A stretch of DNA of 64,000 nt. Origin: a virus (Duplodnaviria > Heunggongvirae > Uroviricota > Caudoviricetes). Location: IMG/VR virus record IMGVR_UViG_3300045988_158256; one strand, written 5' to 3'. Positions within the stretch are counted from its first letter, which is position 1; the number at the start of each line of letters is the position of its first letter. Positions 21-47,309 of the stretch are shown here, piece by piece. The notes below the pieces were generated by a model. That model worked only from the letters and a program-made list of their open reading frames with translations. It was not told the origin of the DNA and searched no databases. The translations under genes were made by a program, and so were the position numbers.

Positions 21-386
21 ATGTTTTTTTATGTCTTAAAAAACATAATAGAAAGTAACAACACATACAATATCTACCTAGATATAAAAGATACTTTAGG
101 TATTGAAAAAATTGAGAAATTAAGAGGAGTTCTTCACAATGATCGCTATGATTACAATCATGAGTCGATAAACAGAATTCAACATATACGATCTCATGAA
201 GTGCAACAATTGCAGCTAACGGATCTTTTCATTGGTGCGTTAGGCTACGTTCATCGAGGAATGAATAGCAACGCGGGAAAAATCCAAGTCATAAACAGGA
301 TAAAATCACATACAAACAGGGAGTTACTAAAAAGCACTCTTCCAACAGAAAGTAAATTTAATATTTTCGTGTGGGAGGCTCGCTGA
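21..386 (+). CDS. hypothetical protein, AT-rich cassette gene 1 (may be 5'-truncated by contig edge)
   Basis: ORF track 3..386 begins inside the adapter, first genuine ATG at 21; low GC unlike the flanking phage backbone; Q-L-T-D-L-F-I-G-A-L segment is reminiscent of the DUF3800 C-terminal motif (tentative, from memory). Confidence 0.35.
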   Translation: MFFYVLKNIIESNNTYNIYLDIKDTLGIEKIEKLRGVLHNDRYDYNHESINRIQHIRSHEVQQLQLTDLFIGALGYVHRGMNSNAGKIQVINRIKSHTNRELLKSTLPTESKFNIFVWEAR

Positions 387-33184: not shown

Positions 33185-33691
33185 TTGAGTATTTTCAATA
33201 AACACGCACACCAGGAATGTCCGTATATCGTCATAGTTGATATTGATGGAACAATATCAGAGGCAACTGAAGACAGACTGCATTTGCTTCCGCCACCAGG
33301 TAAAGGTGCATTAACAAAGGACTGGAACGAGTTTAATCTCGCCTGTGACACTGATACTCCCATAACTCCAGTTATTGATATTGTGCGCCAGTTATTTAAC
33401 GTTTACACGGTCTGGTTTGTAACCGGGCGCTGTGAGATCGCAAGGGATAAAACACGAGCCTGGCTGCGGAAGTACGTAACAAACGGGGCTGAGCCTTTGC
33501 TATCTATGCGTCCTGCCACCGATGACAGAAATGACGGCCCAGCAAAGATTGATCTCCTTAAGAAAATTGGTCTAAGTAAAATCGCGTTCGCGCTGGAAGA
33601 TAAGATTGAAGTGGCGCGTGTTTTCAGGAGGCACGGCGTGCTTACGTTAATGGTCAGGGAGTATGAAAACGCGCTTTTCCATCAACAATAA
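33185..33691 (+). CDS. HAD-superfamily phosphatase
   Basis: N-terminal VIVDIDGTI (DxDGT) motif; TTG start after GAGGAGG. Confidence 0.55.
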   Translation: MSIFNKHAHQECPYIVIVDIDGTISEATEDRLHLLPPPGKGALTKDWNEFNLACDTDTPITPVIDIVRQLFNVYTVWFVTGRCEIARDKTRAWLRKYVTNGAEPLLSMRPATDDRNDGPAKIDLLKKIGLSKIAFALEDKIEVARVFRRHGVLTLMVREYENALFHQQ

Positions 33692-33707
33692 TTGCTATAA
33701 TAAATAT
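33691..33707 (+). promoter_or_regulatory. C1 operator-like site
   Basis: ATTGCTATAATAAATAT, 15/17. Confidence 0.55.
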
Positions 33708-33885
33708 TGATTTTTAAAACAGAGAAAGTGAAAATAAAAACATGCCGCAAGGCGCGGCATGTATCCAATCAATCACAGGAGCTGAAAATATGAACACGGC
33801 ATTCAAAATCATTATGGCCGCGATCTATTTCTGGCTGTTCTCTATCACTTTTGGCGGCATCGTCGCACATGGGTAAGGGGGATGC

Positions 33886-34467
33886 ATGAAAGGCGAAGTG
33901 AAAGAGCGCGGCATGATTTTTAACGATGAGATGGTCCGGGCAATTCTTGGCGGGAATAAAACACAGACTCGCAGGATTGTTGAAGAAAAATTCTATGGAC
34001 GGGCAGTGGCCGCAGAGTTGCTTGCCAAGCATTGTCCATATGGTCAACCGGGCGATCGTATTTGGGTTCGCGAAACCTACCGGGTACATGGCAAAGCGAC
34101 GGACGTCGCAACGCTGGTTTATCGCGCAAGCGTGCGTAACTCCTGGACAGAACAAACGCACCGGGTTCCGGTCGAGGTTTGTAATAAACCAGTATCAGAA
34201 AAGTGGACGCCATCAATTCACATGCCGCGCTGGGCATCGCGCATTCTTCTGGAAATTACCAACGTGCGCGTTGAGCGGTTGAACGATATCAGCGAATGCG
34301 ATGCAAGGGCTGAGGGCGCACCAACAGAATCGACCCTCATTGGCGATAAGCATTACCCAGGTTTCCGTAGCCTATGGAAATCAATTTATGGCGAAGATAG
34401 TTGGAACGCTAATCCTTGGGTGTGGGTAATAGAGTTTGAGCGTATTCAGGGGGCAACCAGTGAGTGA
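33886..34467 (+). CDS. ASCH domain protein
   Basis: MVRAILGGNKTQTRR matches the ASCH GxKxxxxR motif. Confidence 0.5.
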   Translation: MKGEVKERGMIFNDEMVRAILGGNKTQTRRIVEEKFYGRAVAAELLAKHCPYGQPGDRIWVRETYRVHGKATDVATLVYRASVRNSWTEQTHRVPVEVCNKPVSEKWTPSIHMPRWASRILLEITNVRVERLNDISECDARAEGAPTESTLIGDKHYPGFRSLWKSIYGEDSWNANPWVWVIEFERIQGATSE

Positions 34468-34720
34468 GTCAAAATGCCAAATTAATGGCAACAAGATAGA
34501 ACCGTGCGCGGCGTTGGCACAATCCCTGGAGCATGACGCTGAATACACGACGCGAAAAGGTCTGCTGAAATACAAAATCTATAACCATGAATTAATTCAT
34601 TCACAAGACCTGATCATGCTGCGGTCTGGTGAATTTTCTAAATCGCCTATTCGAGTTTCATTTTGCCCGTTCTGTGGTGAAAGTCTGAAAACGTGGGAAG
34701 CGGAGGCAACCAGTGAATAA
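34436..34720 (+). CDS. small zinc-ribbon protein
   Basis: C...C...CPFC pattern; start uncertain. Confidence 0.35.
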   Translation: MSVFRGQPVSESKCQINGNKIEPCAALAQSLEHDAEYTTRKGLLKYKIYNHELIHSQDLIMLRSGEFSKSPIRVSFCPFCGESLKTWEAEATSE

Positions 34721-35357
34721 CCGCTTTTACATGATGTGCTTGCGTGAAACTGTGGGTAATAACGCCTCATTCCATTGCCATAACGGCAATGGTTACAGTT
34801 CTGATATCGATCGCGCTCATGTTTACACGCTGGAAGAAGCCCAAAAAGCCTGGAATTGTGGACGAGATATCGATCAGCCTGTTTGCGCTGATAGCGTGGA
34901 TGCAATGGCTGTGTGGCACGTTGATTGCCAGTACATTCCCACAGAAAGCCTGATTGAGTCAGATTGCACTGCGTATGTGGCCTACAAAAAAGGTAGCTGG
35001 AACGGCAACGATGTTTACTGGCTTCAACACGGTGGATTGCCAACAGATGACTTCAGTAAAGCGACCATCTTTAGCGTCGCCAACAAAAACGAACCAGGAA
35101 TAGTTTGGTTGCCATTTTCCATTGCTGATGCAGCAAAGCGTCGGACGTTCAATATCAATAACTTTAACCGCAGAACAATGGTTCAGGGCGCAGGTTTGGT
35201 CATGCCTGACTGGTTGAAAGAGCAGAACAGAAGAAAGAAGTCGCGAAGCGGGAAGGTGCGTTGGAATTGTCCGCATTGCGGAAAAATAACCTGGCAGTAC
35301 AGCCCATATGATTTTGAAGGCTGTAGTGATTACAACTGTGAAGGATGGCGAGAATGA
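34713..35357 (+). CDS. hypothetical protein with C-terminal Cys-rich motif
   Basis: 214 aa; CPHCG...C...C. Confidence 0.4.
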   Translation: MNNRFYMMCLRETVGNNASFHCHNGNGYSSDIDRAHVYTLEEAQKAWNCGRDIDQPVCADSVDAMAVWHVDCQYIPTESLIESDCTAYVAYKKGSWNGNDVYWLQHGGLPTDDFSKATIFSVANKNEPGIVWLPFSIADAAKRRTFNINNFNRRTMVQGAGLVMPDWLKEQNRRKKSRSGKVRWNCPHCGKITWQYSPYDFEGCSDYNCEGWRE

Positions 35358-36103
35358 CAATTGACTATCAGGCACTGCGTGAGGCGGCAGAGCGTGCAAT
35401 TCCGGCAATGGAACGCCTGTTAATGTTGCCAGTTGATGATGATTTGTTAACTGAACAGGAACTTAAGGATTACGGTGTGGATATTGATGCGCTCAACGCC
35501 TTCAAATTTCTGACCGGACCAGAAACCGTGCTAGCACTACTGGATGAACGGGAAAGAAACCAGCAATACATAAAACGCCGCGACCAGGAGAACGAGGATA
35601 TTGCGCTAACGGTAGGGAAGCTGAGAGTTGAGCTTGAGGAAGTAAAACAACACGCTGAAGAATTATCCGAAACCAAGGCTGTTCGTAACCAATGGCGGCC
35701 AGATCTTTGCCCAATAACCGGACGTGCATTTTTCATGTGGATTGAGCATCCAACATTGGGAAATGTGCCGACATATGGTGGCCCATTAGATAGTTACACC
35801 ATTCCAACAAAGGACGGTGACGGTGAGTTTTCATGTGAGCGTTACGATCATGATTTTGGCGGTTGGGTAGAAAGCGAATGTCTTGGGTTATATCTGATTG
35901 ATGATAGAGAACAATGCAGGGTCTACGAACTGGAGGAACGCGTTAAGGAACTGGATGCTCGGGAAATATCGCTCCCGGAACGTAGCAGCATGCTTCATCG
36001 AACAGATTTTCACGATGATTACCAAACGGTAATGGCATACAAAGTTTCTGAAGTCATCGATGCAATCCGCGCCGCAGGCATTCGCATCAAAGGAGGTGAG
36101 TAA
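35345..36103 (+). CDS. Ead/Ea22-like protein
   Basis: N-terminal MTIDYQALREAAERA typical of lambdoid Ea22-like proteins. Confidence 0.5.
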   Translation: MARMTIDYQALREAAERAIPAMERLLMLPVDDDLLTEQELKDYGVDIDALNAFKFLTGPETVLALLDERERNQQYIKRRDQENEDIALTVGKLRVELEEVKQHAEELSETKAVRNQWRPDLCPITGRAFFMWIEHPTLGNVPTYGGPLDSYTIPTKDGDGEFSCERYDHDFGGWVESECLGLYLIDDREQCRVYELEERVKELDAREISLPERSSMLHRTDFHDDYQTVMAYKVSEVIDAIRAAGIRIKGGE

Positions 36104-36112
36104 TGCGTGTGG

Positions 36113-36289
36113 CATGTATCGGCTTGTTACCGTACCCGACTCGTTTTTGGGCTTCTGCGCTAATTGCAAAGCCGTATGTCCTGATGGCTGACAACATCAT
36201 CCCGGCACCAAAGCGCCGCCATACCGGTATTGCAGCGGCACGACGAGCAGCAAAGAGACGCAGGAGAGCAAAGCGATGAAAAACCGTAA
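36113..36289 (+). CDS. small basic protein
   Basis: 58 aa; strong AGGAGG RBS; not in ORF track (below 60 aa). Confidence 0.35.
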
Positions 36290-36466
36290 AGCAAAGATTC
36301 TGTTAGTTCGTAGAAACGCTCCTGGCGTCTGGCAGTGGGTGAGACTCAGCAACCGACGGATGGGGTTAATGAAACATTACGGGATGATGGATTGTGGTTT
36401 TTGCAAAAAGCCCAGCGCGGCGCAAAACCGCTGGAAAAACCACTTGCGCACTAAAGGAGAGTGATA

Positions 36467-36675
36467 TGGCTATCGCTGCAAGTTACACCATGCATCTCTA
36501 TTGTGATTGCCTCCAGTGTACAGATGGCAAATATAAGTCGCCAGACTTCGGTGAGTATATAGGTACGTCATGGGCTGGCTGTGCAAAAGAGGCGCGCAAG
36601 GATGGCTGGCGAATAAGCAAAGACAAAACGCGTGCTTTTGCGCCCGGGCATAAAGTTTTGAGGATTAACAAATGA
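36467..36675 (+). CDS. small Cys-rich protein
   Basis: 69 aa; GGAG RBS. Confidence 0.35.
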
Positions 36676-37868
36676 CCACTATAACCAAAGAGCGACTGCT
36701 GACAATCAAGCAGTGGCGCGAAACATACGGACCGGGTAGCAACGTTGTACTGCCAGCAGAAGAAGCGGAAGAACTGGCACGGATTGCTCTGGCATCGCTG
36801 GAAGCAAAACCAATAGGTGCATTCCACATTGCAGAACAGCAAGTTGACGGCACAAGTGACTACCTCAAGGATGGAGAATGGCCTATTGATAATGGAATTA
36901 TTGAGGTCTACGCCGCTCCCCCCGTTCCAGTAGTACCGGAAGAAAAACCAATGCCTAATCCTCTTAGCATGTACGCGGTTGATGCTGTTGCCGCTATTGC
37001 AGAGGTGAGAGGCTGGAACGCCTGCCGCGCCGCCATGCTTCAGTCCGGAAACTTTCGGGAAAATAAGAATTCGTCAACCAATAATTTTCGGGAAATCGCG
37101 GAAACGTCAACCAACTATCCGGTAATTCCTAGTGAAGTGTTGTCCGCAATCCTGAAGGTTGCCAAGATTCGTGCCGATTTCGATGATTTTGACGGTGACA
37201 GGCGAGGTATCGGTGATTGTCTGGATGAGGCTGAGCAAGAGCTTATCGTTACCATTAACAAATATGCCAGTCAGTTGGCAGCAGAACCGATAGCGACTAA
37301 TGACGTTCGAGAGCAAACAGCCGTTCCGCCAGTTCCTGTAATACAGGCTGATGTCGCGCAGGCAATTGAAAAACTCAAACGGAAATTAGTGGAATGCAAT
37401 CGCTATAACTACTGCGCAGATGCAGTTAAGGGCGTTGAGTATGCCTGCCACGCTGCCATGCTTCAGGGTAGCCAACCTGTAAGCCAAACTTACAAGTTTC
37501 CAGTTAATACACCTTGCCAGGATGCGCCAGCCCATATCTGGCTGCAAACAGCTGGAGTATGGCCAGAAGATGGCGAGTTAAGCGAATTAACGTGGTGCAG
37601 CCACAATCAGCACCATGATGACACGCTATATGTTCGAGCTGACTTGGTAAATGGCAATTCTCAGGTAACTCCGGATGGTTGGATAAGCTGTAGTGAGCGA
37701 ATGCCCGCTCAAGATGATTGGATTTTAATTTATTCAAAGCACGGTGAGTATATGGCAGGACAGGTGCAAGGGGAATACGTGGAGTTGAGCGACGGCACTT
37801 TATCCTGGTTAGGGAACGCCTTGTTCTGGATGCTGCTACCAGAACCTCCCCAGGAGGCAGGTCAATGA
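36672..37868 (+). CDS. DUF551-like protein
   Basis: C-terminal WISCSERMP...LFWMLLPEPP resembles the DUF551 signature of lambdoid prophage proteins. Confidence 0.5.
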   Translation: MTTITKERLLTIKQWRETYGPGSNVVLPAEEAEELARIALASLEAKPIGAFHIAEQQVDGTSDYLKDGEWPIDNGIIEVYAAPPVPVVPEEKPMPNPLSMYAVDAVAAIAEVRGWNACRAAMLQSGNFRENKNSSTNNFREIAETSTNYPVIPSEVLSAILKVAKIRADFDDFDGDRRGIGDCLDEAEQELIVTINKYASQLAAEPIATNDVREQTAVPPVPVIQADVAQAIEKLKRKLVECNRYNYCADAVKGVEYACHAAMLQGSQPVSQTYKFPVNTPCQDAPAHIWLQTAGVWPEDGELSELTWCSHNQHHDDTLYVRADLVNGNSQVTPDGWISCSERMPAQDDWILIYSKHGEYMAGQVQGEYVELSDGTLSWLGNALFWMLLPEPPQEAGQ

Positions 37869-37932
37869 GCTGGCCTGAAGCATTCGCAACGGTAGGAATT
37901 GTGATGGCGGCAGCACTGGGTTTGTATTCAAT

Positions 37933-38184
37933 TTGTCGCTGGTGGTAACGATGGGGAAATTAACTTTTGTAGTCGAATTTGAGGATGGTAAAGAGCCACC
38001 TGTTAGCGCCAATCTTGATGTTGCTGGTGGAAGGCTTGTTTCGGTTCTATTTGGTGACTACCGAGATGACTTCTTCCAACCAGAAGAAGTTGATGTAGTG
38101 CGAGAGGCATTAAACGAGTTAAGTGTTGACAACGATGATGCTCATGCGGAAATCATCCAAAAAATGGAACTGCTAACTCACTAA
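37933..38184 (+). CDS. small acidic protein
   Basis: 83-aa ORF (possible start at 37951). Confidence 0.35.
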   Translation: MSLVVTMGKLTFVVEFEDGKEPPVSANLDVAGGRLVSVLFGDYRDDFFQPEEVDVVREALNELSVDNDDAHAEIIQKMELLTH

Positions 38185-38232
38185 ATTATCAATTATGGTG
38201 CTATAACCTACGACACCGAGAGAAAATTTATA

Positions 38233-38355
38233 ATGTCAAAAGTAAATGTTTTGATTTTTTCAGCAATTGTTGGCTTTGGTTTTACTGCCGGAGTGCAGAT
38301 TTATATTACGTGGGAAAAAATCATCAACTACGCATGGAGTTGTTTTATTAAGTGA
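38233..38355 (+). CDS. small hydrophobic peptide (40 aa), AT-rich cassette
   Basis: MSKVNVLIFSAIVGFGFTAGVQIYITWEKIINYAWSCFIK; single transmembrane helix; below ORF-track threshold. Confidence 0.35.
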   Translation: MSKVNVLIFSAIVGFGFTAGVQIYITWEKIINYAWSCFIK

Positions 38356-38362
38356 GGTAAGT

Positions 38363-38656
38363 ATGTGGAGAGGTAATAGTCATGGCAAAAGCCAGATGAT
38401 ACTTACCGAATATCAGTTTGACCATAAAACCAATAAATCACGTTCAGTATATTTGCTTCGGCACAATAGCCGCGTAAGGAATACCGTGCTGGAGCAAAAT
38501 CTGACTGTTGAAATAGATAATTACGGGGGCTTCAAGCCAACAATTTCGCTTGATGATTTTCCTCGTGGTTTAAGCGAAAGAGAAGCAATGCTGAAATTAG
38601 CAGAATGGCTACAAAGATTAAGCATTGCTATTGAAGATAACTGGTCTGAACCTTAA
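38363..38656 (+). CDS. hypothetical protein (97 aa), AT-rich cassette
   Basis: ATG at 38363 with GAGG 8 nt upstream; no domain recognised. Confidence 0.45.
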   Translation: MWRGNSHGKSQMILTEYQFDHKTNKSRSVYLLRHNSRVRNTVLEQNLTVEIDNYGGFKPTISLDDFPRGLSEREAMLKLAEWLQRLSIAIEDNWSEP

Positions 38657-38662
38657 ATTTAT

Positions 38663-39037
38663 ATGATGACACTAAAACATTTTCTTGACCGCCCATTATG
38701 GGCGGCAGCCGCAGGCTATGACTTTAATTATATGGATTGCATGTCTTATACCGCCAATGCATACGACTATTCCTTCAGTCTGCTGCTTAATTCTTTAAGA
38801 ATATTGCCGCAAACAGAAGTTGGAGAGCTTCATTTATGGCTATTGGGCTTTATCGCGGCTGGAGTTGGTATTGCTGTATGGCCTTTTATTTTCTGGCTGG
38901 TGGCTGTTGTAGTGTGGTTTAAGTGCAAGACGTACCGGAGAAAGTATTTCTTAGGTGATGGAATGACTGATATTGCCAAAATGAACATTGAAAAATGGAC
39001 TAAGGAATGTGAAAAGAAATGGCGCAAAAAGAAATGA
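38663..39037 (+). CDS. membrane protein (124 aa), AT-rich cassette
   Basis: Hydrophobic segment LWLLGFIAAGVGIAVWPFIFWLVAVVVWF; K-rich C-terminus. Confidence 0.45.
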   Translation: MMTLKHFLDRPLWAAAAGYDFNYMDCMSYTANAYDYSFSLLLNSLRILPQTEVGELHLWLLGFIAAGVGIAVWPFIFWLVAVVVWFKCKTYRRKYFLGDGMTDIAKMNIEKWTKECEKKWRKKK

Positions 39038-39951
39038 CCAGAATCACTGAAGAGCGTATATCAGAGATTATTTCCCGTATCGAAATGTATGGTCACGGTG
39101 CTGGATATACGGCAGATGAAGTATTGGCACTTGCCCAAATGGCTTTGGCGGCTTGCAAAGATGATAAAAAAATGAAGCTTATCGACTTGTTAGTGAAGGA
39201 GCTGCCTAAGTGTGGCGGGTGGCCTGATGGAATGAGTTATTGTTACCTACCCAGTGTCAATTTAATGGCACCATGCGCGACTTTTGCTTTTGGCTCAGAC
39301 CACAAAAAAGACACTTTCTTTGGGCGCAATTTTTGTTGTGAGATTGAGCTTCCAATTGGTGACCTTGATAGCGATGAATACCAGTCAGTTGTCACTCGCG
39401 AACAATACGAATCAGCTCTCATAGCGTCGCAGAAAGTCGAGTTCAATGGTGATGAACTTGAAAGTAAGACTTACAGGTTGGATTTTGGGCAATGGCTGGA
39501 ACAGCAACGCGGGAAAATCGATGTGGACTGTGGTTGTGTGTCCACTGAAACATTCATGCACTGGCTGCGGGTAGCTTACGAGGCTGGCAACTATCCGGAT
39601 ATTCCGGATAGTTCGGTGCCAGCGCCAGGAAAGGGCGTCACCGGTGAACGTATCCGCATTAAGCCGCATGTTTATCGCGAACTGGTTAACCGTCTCCACG
39701 ATACAGCGATCAAGTGTGCTGGCACCCAGCAATTACGAGAAAGAATTAGCCGTGTTTTGGGCGACGTTATTACGCCATATCATCATAAACAAGCCGAGAA
39801 AAGCGGTCTGGAAAGGTGTCATCTTGAGGCAGCATTAAACATTAAGCCGGGGCATACGCTTGGCATTATTGATGCACTGTTGGTTCATAAGATGGCCAGG
39901 GCTTTATTGTCGTTGGTGGACGCTGGTGATACAAGCGAGGGTGAAGTATGA
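39019..39951 (+). CDS. hypothetical protein
   Basis: 310-aa ORF in operon. Confidence 0.4.
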   Translation: MAQKEMTRITEERISEIISRIEMYGHGAGYTADEVLALAQMALAACKDDKKMKLIDLLVKELPKCGGWPDGMSYCYLPSVNLMAPCATFAFGSDHKKDTFFGRNFCCEIELPIGDLDSDEYQSVVTREQYESALIASQKVEFNGDELESKTYRLDFGQWLEQQRGKIDVDCGCVSTETFMHWLRVAYEAGNYPDIPDSSVPAPGKGVTGERIRIKPHVYRELVNRLHDTAIKCAGTQQLRERISRVLGDVITPYHHKQAEKSGLERCHLEAALNIKPGHTLGIIDALLVHKMARALLSLVDAGDTSEGEV

Positions 39952-40310
39952 GAGTTGCAGATCACATCAAACACCTTGAAAGAATTATCGAAAACGGTGA
40001 ACTCTTAAGAGATCAGATGAGACGCACGGCAGAAGCCAGGGAGGCGATAATCCGCAGTCAGGCTGGTAAATTAAAGCAATTATCAGAGATTAACGCGCTA
40101 TACAAGAACAGACGTAACCGGGCGGCGCTGCGGCTTCAGAAAGCACGTAATGAAATTAAATTGGTGGAGGCAAAACTGAAAAAACAGATTCAGCGTTACG
40201 ATCAGCAAGATGCTTTTTATGCCGCCATCAAGGCGGCTGCTAATGAAATAGGCATCTGGAAGTTGCTGGTGGAGAAAGCAAAGACGAAGTTAAATGCCAA
40301 CGAAAGCTGA
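39948..40310 (+). CDS. coiled-coil protein
   Basis: 120 aa, overlapping start. Confidence 0.4.
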   Translation: MRVADHIKHLERIIENGELLRDQMRRTAEAREAIIRSQAGKLKQLSEINALYKNRRNRAALRLQKARNEIKLVEAKLKKQIQRYDQQDAFYAAIKAAANEIGIWKLLVEKAKTKLNANES

Positions 40311-40375
40311 ACTACAGGTACCCACCAGCACATACAGAAAATGATTGTTTCCACATCAAGGAGATTTTAATGTTT

Positions 40376-40513
40376 CACTGAACATTAAGTAAGCCAGTGC
40401 ATAATTCCATTTTTTACTGACCTTAAAAGCAAAATCAAAACGATGATGAGGATGATCGCCAGAATCTGGCTAATAACAGGCGCATCTAAAAATGCACTCA
40501 GGAACTGAAAAAA
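40376..40513 (-). CDS. small hydrophobic peptide (45 aa), type I toxin-like
   Basis: MTAFFQFLSAFLDAPVISQILAIILIIVLILLLRSVKNGIMHWLT; AGGA RBS about 11 nt upstream; sits in an otherwise non-coding 640-bp gap. Confidence 0.3.
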
Positions 40514-40971
40514 AGCAGTCATTAAGGTGGTTCCTTGTCAAATGTAAAGGAGCACTTGCTCACGTTGACGTAGAAACCCAACCCCTATATAGTTGGATTC
40601 GGTGAAAGAAAGTCGTTAACGTGAGCTTACGGCACATGTTTTCGGAACAACATCAGGGAACGGCTAATTCCTTGATGCGGATGGGGTCTGTAATGCAGAC
40701 CCTATCTATTAACGTCATGATTGCATCTCAAATTTTCTCCTTATCTTCATTAATCAAAATTCATTTCATTTGTGAAACATCACAATATTTAGAAAATGGC
40801 CCTCTTGCAAGTGCATAACTTTGTGGATAAATCAGGAAGAAAAAAGTTGATTCTGCGCACGGCAAGGCAGATAAGCTGTGCACAAAAATCAATGGGAAAA
40901 GAAAAAAAATTAAAAGTTACTTTGCTGGTTAAATAATAGTCGTTACGCAATTGTTCTGGATGGGATTTGAT

Positions 40972-41223
40972 ATGCACGATTGGAATATTGCAGCTAAAAG
41001 TCAGGAAGAACGGGATAAGGTTAACGTTGATCTGGCTGCCAGCGGTGTGGCGTACAAAGAGCGATTGAACATACCTGTCATAGCTGAACAGGTAGCCCGC
41101 GAGCAACCAGAGAATCTGCGCACCTATTTCATGGAACGGTTACGGCACTATCGGCAGTTAAGCCTCCAGTTGCCAAAAGGGAGCGATCCGGTGTATCAGA
41201 ACGAGGATGCACCAAAAAAATAA
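40972..41223 (+). CDS. hot: homolog of DNA polymerase III theta subunit (HolE)
   Basis: [36 protein letters not shown] parallels E. coli HolE. Confidence 0.75.
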
Positions 41224-46990: not shown

Positions 46991-47122
46991 TGTTTTTTAA
47001 CTACCGATGTTACATTGAGCCTGACCTCTTGCGCCTTGAGGCATTTTCGGTTTATGCTTATCAGGCACCTCATTAAAACGGGTGCCGGGATTGGCCTCCC
47101 GCTTAAGTCTAAGGCGATACAG

Positions 47123-47150
47123 ACGCCGCTCGCGTCTTTTTTTTGTATCG
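47123..47150 (+). terminator. hairpin terminator
   Basis: gacgc-cgct-cgcgtc stem-loop followed by T8. Confidence 0.55.
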
Positions 47151-47173
47151 GCGTACACGCACACCTCTACAAT

Positions 47174-47249
47174 GGTGGGCTGTATGGGGCTACCTTCGGG
47201 TAGGCTGGTTACCTTGGACGCCAGTAAGGCCAACTCCGTACAGTCCACC
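47174..47249 (+). ncRNA. c4-like antisense immunity RNA (candidate)
   Basis: 76-nt structure: 14-bp closing stem ggtgggctgtatgg / ccgtacagtccacc (two G-U), internal UUCG hairpin ctacc-ttcg-ggtag; TACAAT -10-like hexamer just upstream; directly precedes icd. Confidence 0.5.
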
Positions 47250-47309
47250 GCCAGCAAGATTGGTCTCTTCTGCGGTGGTTACATACCAACGTCTAAGGAG
47301 GCTGCCAAT

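What the first reader, a model, noticed from the sequence alone, without database searches (positions are those of the whole stretch)
38233..39037. AT-rich three-gene membrane cassette embedded in the accessory operon
Composition drops sharply between about 38.2 and 39.0 kb. The interval encodes a 40-aa single-helix peptide, a 97-aa soluble protein (ATG 38363, GAGG RBS) and a 124-aa protein with a long hydrophobic segment and lysine-rich tail. Small membrane proteins in compositionally foreign morons are typical of superinfection-exclusion or abortive-infection functions. None of the three matches anything I recognise.
Basis: partly seen in the sequence, partly recalled or inferred. Interest (0 to 1): 0.55.

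Follow-up and report, generated by a model that had tools for sequence, protein, structure and literature searches.

The report
Swappable early accessory genes in P1-like plasmid
The AT-rich stretch is real and encodes small proteins of unknown function, two of them membrane proteins, but it is an ordinary, already catalogued block of exchangeable phage accessory genes in a known variable region of P1-like phage-plasmids, with nothing yet pointing to a self-contained defence cassette.

Summary
Window 38233-39037 has GC 0.389 against 0.483 for the window, and it encodes a 40-aa one-helix peptide, a 97-aa soluble protein and a 124-aa membrane protein.

The window is a P1-like phage-plasmid. The three genes lie in a roughly 5-kb array of early accessory genes of the kind found in lambdoid, epsilon15-like and N15-like phages. 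That array sits between a diverged pmgT and a pmgU-like gene, downstream of the conserved C1 operator Op88. This is published 'variable region 8' of P1-like elements.

Reference P1 lacks the block, but a third to a half of P1-like elements in complete E. coli genomes carry it. The three genes are separable modules, each with homologues elsewhere that lack the other two. All three belong to PHROG families of unknown function, and the exact proteins are on at least 1000 public contigs each, almost always called 'hypothetical protein'.

No promoter or terminator of their own was found. There is no match to any defence family, solved structure or known exclusion protein. Homologues sit in repressor-controlled early operons and in lytic Proteus phages.

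I conclude they are dispensable early genes acting during lytic growth. The prophage-expressed exclusion reading is unsupported but not excluded. Interest is low.

The parts
33691..33707 (+). C1 repressor operator equivalent to P1 Op88/OpmgT, with the overlapping PpmgT promoters. This is the presumed control point of the whole operon.
   Evidence: It matches the C1 operator consensus at 15 of 17 positions. The surrounding 250 bp is 97% identical to the P1 region annotated as OpmgT/P1pmgT/P2pmgT.
33886..34467 (+). Diverged pmgT-like gene (193 aa), first gene of the operon and left edge of the inserted array.
   Evidence: 47% identical to the N-terminal part of P1 PmgT; phrog_874.
34713..37868 (+). 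Upstream part of the inserted array: a 214-aa gene, an Ead/Ea22-like gene (35345-36103), 58-, 62- and 69-aa genes, and a 398-aa DUF551 protein (36672-37868).
   Evidence: Pfam Ead_Ea22 at 3e-28 and DUF551 at 5e-9. The ORFs are tightly packed or overlapping on the + strand. The same Ea22, DUF551, p40-like order is seen in epsilon15-like coliphages.
37865..37948 (+). Unannotated 27-codon hydrophobic ORF (MSWPEAFATVGIVMAAALGLYSICRWW).
   Evidence: Its ATG overlaps the DUF551 stop codon (ATGA). 26 of 27 residues are conserved in phage 813R1. There is no family match. Its coding status is uncertain.
37951..38184 (+). p77, a very acidic 77-aa protein (18 D/E, 6 K/R). It is the true first gene of the AT-rich block.
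   Evidence: GC3 0.33; phrog_3876 at E 8e-53; dN/dS 0.02-0.07. It travels with p40: the two are found together in 202 E. coli genomes.
38233..38355 (+). p40, a 40-aa single-helix membrane peptide.
   Evidence: phrog_5525 at E 1e-24. Homologues of exactly 40 aa, 45-48% identical over the full length, occur in a Klebsiella prophage and two coliphages, one of them classified as a Uetakevirus. They share an invariant G14-F-G-x-x-A-G20 motif. Maximum KD19 is 1.83.
38363..38656 (+). p97, a soluble 97-aa protein with four beta-strands and a long C-terminal helix.
38663..39037 (+). p124, a single-pass inner-membrane protein with a predicted N-terminus-out, C-terminus-in topology.
   Evidence: phrog_2638 at E 1e-62. 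AlphaFold2 pLDDT is 84.7, all-helical, with one continuous helix at residues 53-96. Across 35 family members the N-terminal region averages net charge -3.1, the C-terminal region +6.3, and the 30-residue core is uncharged. Residues 1-31 are 83% conserved against about 50% elsewhere; P74 and C88 are invariant. The family is narrow: 35 representative clusters among 1.84 billion.
39019..39951 (+). 310-aa chimeric gene that overlaps the p124 3' end by 19 nt. It holds the right edge of the inserted array.
   Evidence: Residues 172-310 are 84% identical to the P1 PmgU reading frame. Nucleotide homology with reference P1 resumes at about window 39576.
39948..40310 (+). pmgV, the P1 backbone gene that closes the operon.
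   Evidence: 99% identical to P1 PmgV; phrog_4403.

Best explanation
The interval is part of an AT-rich block of small genes: p77, p40, p97 and p124, possibly preceded by a 27-codon ORF. The block belongs to a roughly 5-kb array of early accessory genes of the lambdoid 'ea/nin' type, with homologues in lambdoid, epsilon15-like and N15-like phages. Recombination placed this array between pmgT and pmgU of a P1-like phage-plasmid, in the published variable region 8.

Shown here:
- The genes are individually exchangeable modules with junctions at gene boundaries.
- They are under purifying selection.
- They have no detectable transcription signals of their own.
- They sit behind a conserved C1 operator and promoter region.

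Inferred:
- They are read through from PpmgT when C1 repression is lifted, so they act early in lytic development and not from the resting prophage.
- They are dispensable.

Proposed mechanism, which is inference only. p124 inserts into the inner membrane as a single-pass protein. Its acidic, very strongly conserved 55-residue N-terminal part would face the periplasm and its basic helix the cytoplasm. It would act by binding a host envelope component through that N-terminal part and the conserved W-P-(F/L)-I-F-W motif in the membrane helix. p40 would be a small helix-packing membrane peptide of the regulator type. p97 would be a cytoplasmic binding protein working independently.

The most likely purpose is to adjust the infected cell's envelope or physiology, or to compete with other phages or host defences, during lytic growth.
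For: Identity and location:
- The window is 96-98% identical over the matched parts of this region to Punavirus genomes.
- The Op88 region is conserved.
- P1 has pmgT-pmgU-pmgV at this place.
- pmgT to humD is variable region 8 of P1-like phage-plasmids (PMC9603915).
- pmgT, pmgU and pmgV are non-essential in a P1 CRISPRi screen (PMC10695390).

No own signals:
- No sigma-70-like site on the + strand between 37187 and 40565, and no terminator-like site in the block.
- The only P1 late promoter near the block is LPhot at 40914.
- No flanking repeats.

Modularity, as counts among 5426 complete E. coli genomes:
- backbone 568
- any part of the cassette 309
- p124 264
- p77 plus p40 202
- RCS47-type elements start exactly at 38357 and end at 39038; pB2C_96 has p97 only.

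Source pool:
- p124 homologues lie between Ead_Ea22 and DUF551 in Klebsiella prophages and in the nin region of Yersinia prophages.
- p40 homologues follow the DUF551/Eaa gene in epsilon15-like phages.
- p97 homologues are N15 gp44 and nin-region genes.
- A chromosomal hybrid joins lambdoid replication genes directly to this array.

Lytic role: both p97 and p124 homologues occur in Proteus Gorganvirus phages. One of these is reported to lack integrase and repressor genes (PMC8539402).

Foreign origin: homologues elsewhere have the GC content of their own surroundings (0.47-0.50), so AT-richness is not a trait of these families.

Selection: dN/dS 0.17-0.41 for p97 and p124.

Topology: charge bias across 35 family members and the AlphaFold2 model.
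Against: - No transcription data exist for this block. Control by C1 is inferred from a 15/17 operator match plus the P1 annotation, and the C-to-A change in the operator creates a TATAAT.
- Consensus scans can miss weak or non-canonical promoters. A TGcTATAAc element at 38199-38207, 26 nt before p40, was not excluded as a weak promoter.
- Within P1-like elements p124 is essentially never found without p97 (264 against 266 genomes). p97 and p124 homologues also co-occur in an unrelated Proteus phage lineage. A functional link between those two is therefore not ruled out.
- No function is shown for any of the proteins. The mechanism for p124 rests on sequence features and a predicted model only.
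Confidence: 0.7

Rival explanations
1. One reading: a self-contained moron expressed from the resident prophage. Its membrane proteins would protect the lysogen by superinfection exclusion or abortive infection.
For: - The block is compositionally foreign and variably present.
- Two products are predicted membrane proteins.
- AT-rich DNA can hide weak promoters; a TGcTATAAc element lies 26 nt upstream of p40.
Against: - No promoter or terminator consensus flanks the block, and genes are translationally coupled or overlapping.
- The block lies in a C1-operator-controlled operon.
- There is no PADLOC, Pfam or NCBIfam hit.
- There is no structural match to any viral protein other than one probable family member.
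- Homologues sit in repressed early operons and in lytic Proteus phages (PMC8539402).
Confidence: 0.1
2. One functional system of two or three parts. For example, p124 and/or p40 would be a membrane toxin or effector controlled by soluble p97, in the manner of a toxin-antitoxin or abortive-infection pair.
For: - In P1-like elements p124 is almost always preceded by p97 (264 against 266 genomes).
- The p97 stop and the p124 start are 6 nt apart, and p124 has no Shine-Dalgarno sequence of its own.
- Both families co-occur in Proteus Gorganvirus genomes.
Against: - p97 occurs without p124 in about 40 E. coli genomes and in N15, phiKO2, P22-like and lambdoid phages.
- p124 homologues in Klebsiella and Yersinia prophages have no p97 homologue within 6 kb.
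- In the Proteus phage the two genes are 6 kb apart on opposite strands.
- An IS91 insertion separates p97 and p124 in pLKSZ04 while leaving p124 intact; p97 there is annotated as frameshifted and incomplete.
Confidence: 0.08
3. Counter-defence genes. One or more of p77, p97 and p124 would inhibit a host or prophage immunity system early in infection. The very acidic p77 would be a candidate DNA or protein mimic.
For: - The block lies in a fast-changing early accessory region.
- Such regions in enterobacterial phages are rich in counter-defence genes and triggers of defence (bioRxiv 10.1101/2023.04.06.535777).
- p77 has net charge -12 and very strong purifying selection.
- p97 is a small soluble protein with a strongly conserved C-terminal helix.
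Against: There is no similarity to any characterised anti-defence protein in the libraries searched. No experimental data exist. This is a specific version of the best explanation and not a true alternative to it.
Confidence: 0.2
4. p124 is a holin-like or lysis-timing protein.
For: It is small, has one membrane helix and has a highly basic C-terminal tail, as holins do (own knowledge).
Against: In the prophage loci read here, p124 homologues lie in ea, nin or replication modules, kilobases from the holin and endolysin genes, not in the lysis cassette. The very strongly conserved N-terminal part is not a holin feature.
Confidence: 0.04

Closest known systems
Early accessory genes of the 'ea' and 'nin' regions of lambdoid, epsilon15-like and N15-like temperate phages
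   Same: Homologues of p40, p97 and p124 are found in exactly these regions, next to Ead/Ea22 and DUF551 genes as in this window. The shared traits are small tightly packed genes, exchange points at gene boundaries, dispensability and control by the phage repressor.
   Different: Here the genes sit in a P1-type phage-plasmid under the C1 repressor and not under a lambda-type CI/N/Q circuit. This version is about 9 GC points below its surroundings, whereas homologues elsewhere match theirs.
P1 pmgT-pmgU-pmgV operon, part of 'variable region 8' of P1-like phage-plasmids (PMC9603915)
   Same: Same position, same upstream operator and promoter region (97% identical), and same downstream pmgV (99%). 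Replacement of pmgT by clusters of unknown genes has been described for phage JL22.
   Different: P1 itself has only pmgT and pmgU here, about 0.7 kb where this window has about 5.7 kb.
Morons (extra genes in phage genomes with their own promoter and terminator, expressed from the prophage)
   Same: Present in some relatives and absent in others, with deviant base composition.
   Different: No own promoter or terminator was detected, and the genes are embedded in and coupled to a longer operon.
Superinfection-exclusion membrane proteins made early in lytic infection (T4 Imm and Sp; own knowledge, and the review PMC11436027 listed)
   Same: Small inner-membrane proteins encoded among early genes. 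p124 could work like them, through a periplasm-facing part that blocks entry of other phage DNA.
   Different: No sequence or fold similarity was found, and no phenotype is known.
Small hydrophobic regulator peptides such as MgrB and MgtR (abstracts seen: 10.1101/2022.12.22.521624, PMC6813294)
   Same: p40 is a peptide of fewer than 50 aa with one helix and a conserved small-residue packing motif (GFGxxAG). That is the kind of peptide that binds and modulates a larger membrane protein.
   Different: This is an analogy only. There is no homology (one search gave only a sub-threshold hit to CydH at E 0.15), and no partner is known.

Membership tests
Moron | Present in some members of a phage group and absent from close relatives | tested here: met
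   Absent from P1, P7 and D6. Present in 813R1, SJ46 and RCS47, and in 202-309 of about 568 E. coli genomes carrying a P1-like element.
Moron | Base composition different from the surrounding genome | tested here: met
   GC 0.389 against 0.483, in the lowest 0.63% of windows.
Moron | Own promoter upstream and own terminator downstream (an autonomous transcription unit) | tested here: not met
   No consensus promoter on the + strand between 37187 and 40565 and no terminator-like site in the block. The only extended -10-like element has C at the last position and a poor -35. These are consensus scans, not transcript mapping.
Moron | Expressed from the repressed prophage | not testable with these tools
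   Needs RNA-seq or reporter fusions in a lysogen.
Known anti-phage defence or abortive-infection systems (PADLOC-DB) | Match to a defence-system protein model | tested here: not met
   No hits at E up to 1 for p77, p40, p97, p124 or the 310-aa neighbour.
Superinfection-exclusion proteins | Membrane or envelope location | tested here: inconclusive
   Predicted for p40 and p124 from hydropathy, charge bias and the AlphaFold2 model. Not shown experimentally.
Superinfection-exclusion proteins | Sequence or fold similarity to a characterised exclusion protein | tested here: not met
   [not shown]
Superinfection-exclusion proteins | Blocks infection by other phages when expressed | not testable with these tools
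   Needs plating assays.
Lambdoid-type ea/nin early accessory gene pool | Homologues located in ea, nin or early-right regions of lambdoid, epsilon15-like or N15-like phages | tested here: met
Lambdoid-type ea/nin early accessory gene pool | Mosaic exchange with junctions at gene boundaries | tested here: met
   Alternative forms begin at 38357, between the p40 stop and the p97 start. They end at 38644 or at 39038, the p124 stop.
Lambdoid-type ea/nin early accessory gene pool | Transcribed early under repressor control | tested here: inconclusive
   The operator and promoter region is conserved with P1 Op88/PpmgT and no internal signals were found. No transcript data are available.
Toxin-antitoxin or multi-part system | Components conserved as neighbours across lineages | tested here: not met
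   Each gene occurs without the others outside P1-like elements. Within P1-like elements p124 does depend on the presence of p97.
Holin | Small membrane protein with a charged C-terminus, encoded next to an endolysin | tested here: not met
   The architecture is compatible. However, the gene and its homologues are not in lysis cassettes.

The most novel reading that the evidence does not exclude
The p124 family (phrog_2638) could be a new kind of envelope-acting phage factor. It has a very strongly conserved 31-residue N-terminus, a W-P-x-I-F-W membrane helix and a basic tail. It would be made early in lytic growth by temperate and lytic Enterobacterales phages alike. It would either exclude competing phages or disable a membrane-bound host defence by binding a host inner-membrane or periplasmic protein, and it might work together with p97.
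Probability: 0.2. Interest if true: 0.5.

Novelty: new member of a known kind. Interest (0 to 1): 0.22.

Why it matters
P1-like phage-plasmids are common in E. coli: the backbone is in about 10% of complete genomes here. They spread resistance genes through their variable regions (PMC9603915). Knowing that this block is an early, lytic-phase set of swappable genes keeps it from being mislabelled as a defence island. It also points any experiment at induction or infection conditions and not at the resting lysogen.

The proteins themselves remain uncharacterised. p124, with its unusually conserved N-terminus, and the strongly constrained acidic p77 are reasonable low-cost candidates for accessory-gene screens. 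Nothing here changes current understanding.

Tried and rejected
Family and structure searches that found nothing useful:
- Pfam, NCBIfam and PADLOC gave nothing for the three proteins. The only hit was a sub-threshold match of p40 to CydH (E 0.15).
- Profile searches of both families against all PDB sequences found no match at E up to 10.
- Foldseek of p124 against viral structures gave one unnamed hit at E 4e-3, probably a family member.
- The afdb50 library was not available.

Signal and sequence searches in the window that found nothing:
- A search for the P1 late-promoter motif found only LPhot at 40914, plus one 2-mismatch chance match at window 88-111.
- A repeat search found no flanking direct or inverted repeats, so this is not a transposable unit.
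- A paralogue search in the window found none.
- Rfam found nothing in the region.

Ideas rejected:
- p40 as a type I toxin with an antisense RNA. Minus-strand promoter-like sites at 38388-38360 and 38424-38396 exist, but promoter-like sites in the region are fewer than in shuffled sequence (13 against 17.2). In other phages the p40 homologues are ordinary operon genes.

Literature dead ends:
- The P1 genome paper (PMC523184) is not held.
- A search for 'pmgT' alone returned mostly unrelated papers.
- One search failed on a two-letter term.

Names in public databases: a look-up showed 'hypothetical protein' nearly throughout. One source gives p40 the evidently automatic label 'membrane protein insertase Oxa1/YidC/SpoIIIJ'.
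Full report
**1. The observation**

The composition dip is real. Window 38233-39037 has GC 0.389 against a window mean of 0.483. That is the lowest 0.63% of all 805-bp windows, about 2.9 SD below the mean. Third-position GC is 0.34, 0.35 and 0.42 for the three genes, against 0.43-0.57 for most other genes of the operon.

The dip begins earlier than reported, at about 37.95 kb. It includes a fourth gene, the 77-aa acidic protein p77 at 37951-38184 (GC3 0.33).

- p40 is 38233-38355.
- p97 is 38363-38656. Its GAGG lies 5 nt upstream of the ATG and overlaps the p40 stop codon.
- p124 is 38663-39037. Its ATG lies 6 nt after the p97 stop and has no Shine-Dalgarno sequence.

Hydropathy agrees with the description. 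p40 has one hydrophobic helix and p97 has none. p124 has a 30-residue uncharged core followed by a basic tail.

The genes are real. Each matches a PHROG family end to end. dN/dS among variants is 0.12 for p40 (from only 3 substitutions) and 0.17-0.41 for p97 and p124.

**2. Where it sits**

The window is a P1-like phage-plasmid (Punavirus), 96-98% identical over the matched parts of this region to 813R1, SJ46, RCS47, P7 and P1.

Upstream, the pap gene ends at 33691. It is followed by a 17-bp C1 operator (15/17 to consensus). The surrounding region is 97% identical to the P1 region annotated as operator OpmgT (old Op88) with promoters P1pmgT and P2pmgT.

From there, thirteen or more + strand ORFs follow with overlapping or nearly abutting ends, down to pmgV at 39948-40310, which is 99% identical to P1 PmgV.

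- The first gene (33886-34467) is 47% identical to the N-terminal part of PmgT.
- The C-terminal 139 residues of the 310-aa gene after p124 are 84% identical to the PmgU reading frame.
- Nucleotide homology with reference P1 is lost after about 33.9 kb and resumes at about 39.58 kb.

So about 5.7 kb here replaces about 0.7 kb in P1.

This is the published 'variable region 8' (pmgT to humD) of P1-like phage-plasmids, and replacement of pmgT by clusters of unknown genes has been described for JL22 (PMC9603915). In P1 itself, pmgT, pmgU and pmgV scored as non-essential in a genome-wide CRISPRi screen (PMC10695390).

**3. No signals of its own**

- The consensus scan found no sigma-70-like site on the + strand between 37187 and 40565, and no terminator-like site in the block. 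Promoter-like sites in the region are no more frequent than in shuffled sequence (13 against 17.2).
- The P1 late-promoter motif occurs only at LPhot (40914-40937), apart from one 2-mismatch chance match at window 88-111.
- The only extended -10-like element on the + strand in 37.8-39.05 kb is TGCTATAAC at 38199. It has C at the normally invariant last position and a poor -35. I treat it as something to test, not as a promoter.
- No flanking repeats mark a mobile unit.

**4. Distribution and modularity**

Counts among 5426 complete E. coli genomes:

| Sequence | Genomes |
|---|---|
| pap-Op88 backbone, at least 80% covered | 568 |
| Any part of the 841-bp query | 309 (314 of 318 places on plasmids) |
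| p124, at least 80% covered | 264 |
| p77 plus p40, at least 80% covered | 202 |

PLSDB holds 310 plasmids with a match. The block is therefore common, in roughly a third to a half of P1-like elements, but not universal.

The forms are nested:
- p97 alone, for example pB2C_96, with an ASCH-domain gene upstream and different genes downstream.
- p97 plus p124, the RCS47 type.
- The full p77-p40-p97-p124 block.

Exchange points fall at 38357, 38644 and 39038, that is, at gene boundaries. An apparent 'p40 plus p97 only' case is an IS91 insertion between p97 and p124.

**5. Relatives elsewhere**

p124:
- The family is narrow. It has 35 representative clusters among 1.84 billion proteins, nearly all full-length members being 102-131 aa.
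- Members come from Citrobacter, Klebsiella, Enterobacter, Yersinia, Xenorhabdus and Rahnella.
- In Klebsiella prophages the gene lies between Ead/Ea22 and DUF551 genes. In one case this is beside the integrase, in others downstream of DnaT-like and P-type replication genes and upstream of terminase.
- In Yersinia prophages it lies in the nin region, between a NinB-family gene and YbcO/RusA.

p40:
- Homologues are exactly 40 aa and 45-48% identical over the full length, with an invariant GFGxxAG motif.
- They directly follow the DUF551/Eaa gene in the epsilon15-like coliphages EC.W1-9 and phiv142-3.
- In the Klebsiella prophage one lies two genes after the p124 homologue.

p97:
- The family is broad, with 128 clusters.
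- It includes N15 gp44 and phiKO2 Gp43, as well as nin-region genes between ninF and the HNH/RusA genes of mEp235 and SPN9CC.

Other points:
- An E. coli chromosome (APEC17) carries lambdoid replication genes joined directly to this array and then to the P1 genes hot, humD, phd and doc. This is a recombinant of the kind that could move such genes.
- Homologues of both p97 and p124 occur in Proteus Gorganvirus phages. In RS10pmA, p124 lies in the replication module and p97 lies 6 kb away on the other strand. For another member of that genus, PM-CJR, no integrase or repressor gene was found (PMC8539402).
- Homologues outside the P1 group have the GC content of their surroundings (0.47-0.50). The low GC here therefore reflects the history of this copy and is not a trait of the families.

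**6. The proteins**

p124:
- AlphaFold2 with 35 sequences gives pLDDT 84.7. The model is all-helical, with short helices at 4-9 and 11-16, then 23-46, one continuous helix at 53-96, and 103-123.
- Across the family the region before the hydrophobic core has mean net charge -3.1 and the region after it +6.3. By the positive-inside rule (established knowledge) this predicts N-terminus out and C-terminus in.
- Residues 1-31 are 83% conserved against about 50% elsewhere. T3, H6, F7, D9, P11, A15, G18, Y19, F21, D25, A31, P74, C88 and W112 are invariant.
- Such conservation in a short exposed segment and in mid-membrane suggests specific binding. This is inference.

p97:
- AlphaFold2 gives pLDDT 82.8, with four antiparallel strands and then a helix at residues 72-94.
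- The conserved residues cluster in that helix.

**7. Interpretation**

Shown:
- This is a compositionally foreign, variably present block of real genes in a known variable region.
- It is made of separable modules drawn from the early accessory gene pool of lambdoid-type phages.
- It has no detectable transcription signals of its own, and it sits behind a conserved C1 operator.

Inferred:
- The genes are co-transcribed with the pmgT operon on derepression and act in lytic growth.
- p124 is a single-pass membrane protein that binds a host envelope component.
- p40 is a small membrane modulator.
- p97 is an independent cytoplasmic protein.

It also finds no support in any family search. An exclusion or counter-defence role exerted during lytic growth remains possible and cannot be tested here. 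A two-gene link between p97 and p124 is weakly suggested by their nesting in P1-like elements and by their co-occurrence in Proteus phages. It is contradicted by many genomes that carry only one of the two.

**8. Verdict**

This is an ordinary member of a known kind: uncharacterised early accessory genes in a phage mosaic hotspot. It is already sequenced hundreds of times and catalogued in PHROGs. Interest is low. The only mildly unusual items are the strongly conserved N-terminus of p124 and the strongly constrained acidic p77.

Noticed in passing
window 37951-38184: p77 is a 77-aa protein with 18 acidic and 6 basic residues. It opens the same AT-rich block and is under much stronger purifying selection (dN/dS 0.02-0.07) than its neighbours. 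It belongs to phrog_3876, of unknown function. A small, very acidic early phage protein is the profile of a DNA mimic or protein inhibitor.
   Followed up: partly
window 37865-37948: Unannotated 27-codon hydrophobic ORF (MSWPEAFATVGIVMAAALGLYSICRWW). Its ATG overlaps the stop codon of the DUF551 gene. 26 of 27 residues are conserved in phage 813R1. It matches no PHROG family.
   Followed up: partly
window 33790-33876: 28-codon hydrophobic ORF (MNTAFKIIMAAIYFWLFSITFGGIVAHG) with an AGGAG ribosome-binding site, lying between the Op88 operator and pmgT. It is 100% identical in P1 and RCS47 and is annotated in neither. It could be a leader peptide or a small membrane protein of the operon.
   Followed up: partly
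L014 (E. coli APEC17 chromosome NZ_CP178203.1, 3573208-3586048): A chromosomal hybrid. Lambdoid DnaT-like and P-type replication genes run straight into the Ea22/DUF551/p77/p40/p97/p124 array and then into the P1 genes hot, humD, phd, doc, pdcB and lpa. This is either an integrated recombinant between a lambdoid phage and a P1-like element or an assembly join.
   Followed up: no
window 39019-39951 and L003 5118-5555 (P1): The 310-aa gene after p124 is a chimera. Its last 139 residues match the P1 pmgU reading frame starting about 105 nt upstream of the annotated pmgU start. The P1 pmgU annotation may therefore be too short, or pmgU may be a remnant of a longer gene.
   Followed up: no
window 33691-33707: The Op88-type operator here reads ATTGCTATAATAAATAT. 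The C-to-A change relative to P1 creates a perfect TATAAT inside the operator. Whether this alters C1 control of the operon is unknown.
   Followed up: no
window 40300-41000: A second AT-rich dip (GC down to 0.34) covers the upfM/N/O-hot region and contains the only clear P1 late promoter nearby (40914-40937, identical to LPhot). This matches the published note that the hot-lxr region is low in GC.
   Followed up: partly
NZ_JBSWAS010000004.1 (E. coli strain 205 plasmid) 38469-38658: A natural deletion joins the first 80 nt of p77 to the last 107 nt of p124, removing p40, p97 and most of p124. This shows the block can be lost from an otherwise P1-like plasmid.
   Followed up: no
L017 (Proteus phage RS10pmA) 2336-2689 and 8477-8755: Homologues of p124 (ORF66) and p97 (ORF78) are both present in all Proteus Gorganvirus genomes found, but 6 kb apart and on opposite strands. 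Co-occurrence in a second, unrelated phage lineage hints at a functional link that was not resolved.
   Followed up: partly
window 47065-47255 and 18373-20403: Rfam finds the P1 C4 antisense RNA (47168-47255) with an isrK-type RNA just upstream (47065-47142). It also finds three tRNA genes at 18373-18445, 18451-18523 and 20331-20403.
   Followed up: no
[not shown]
   Followed up: no
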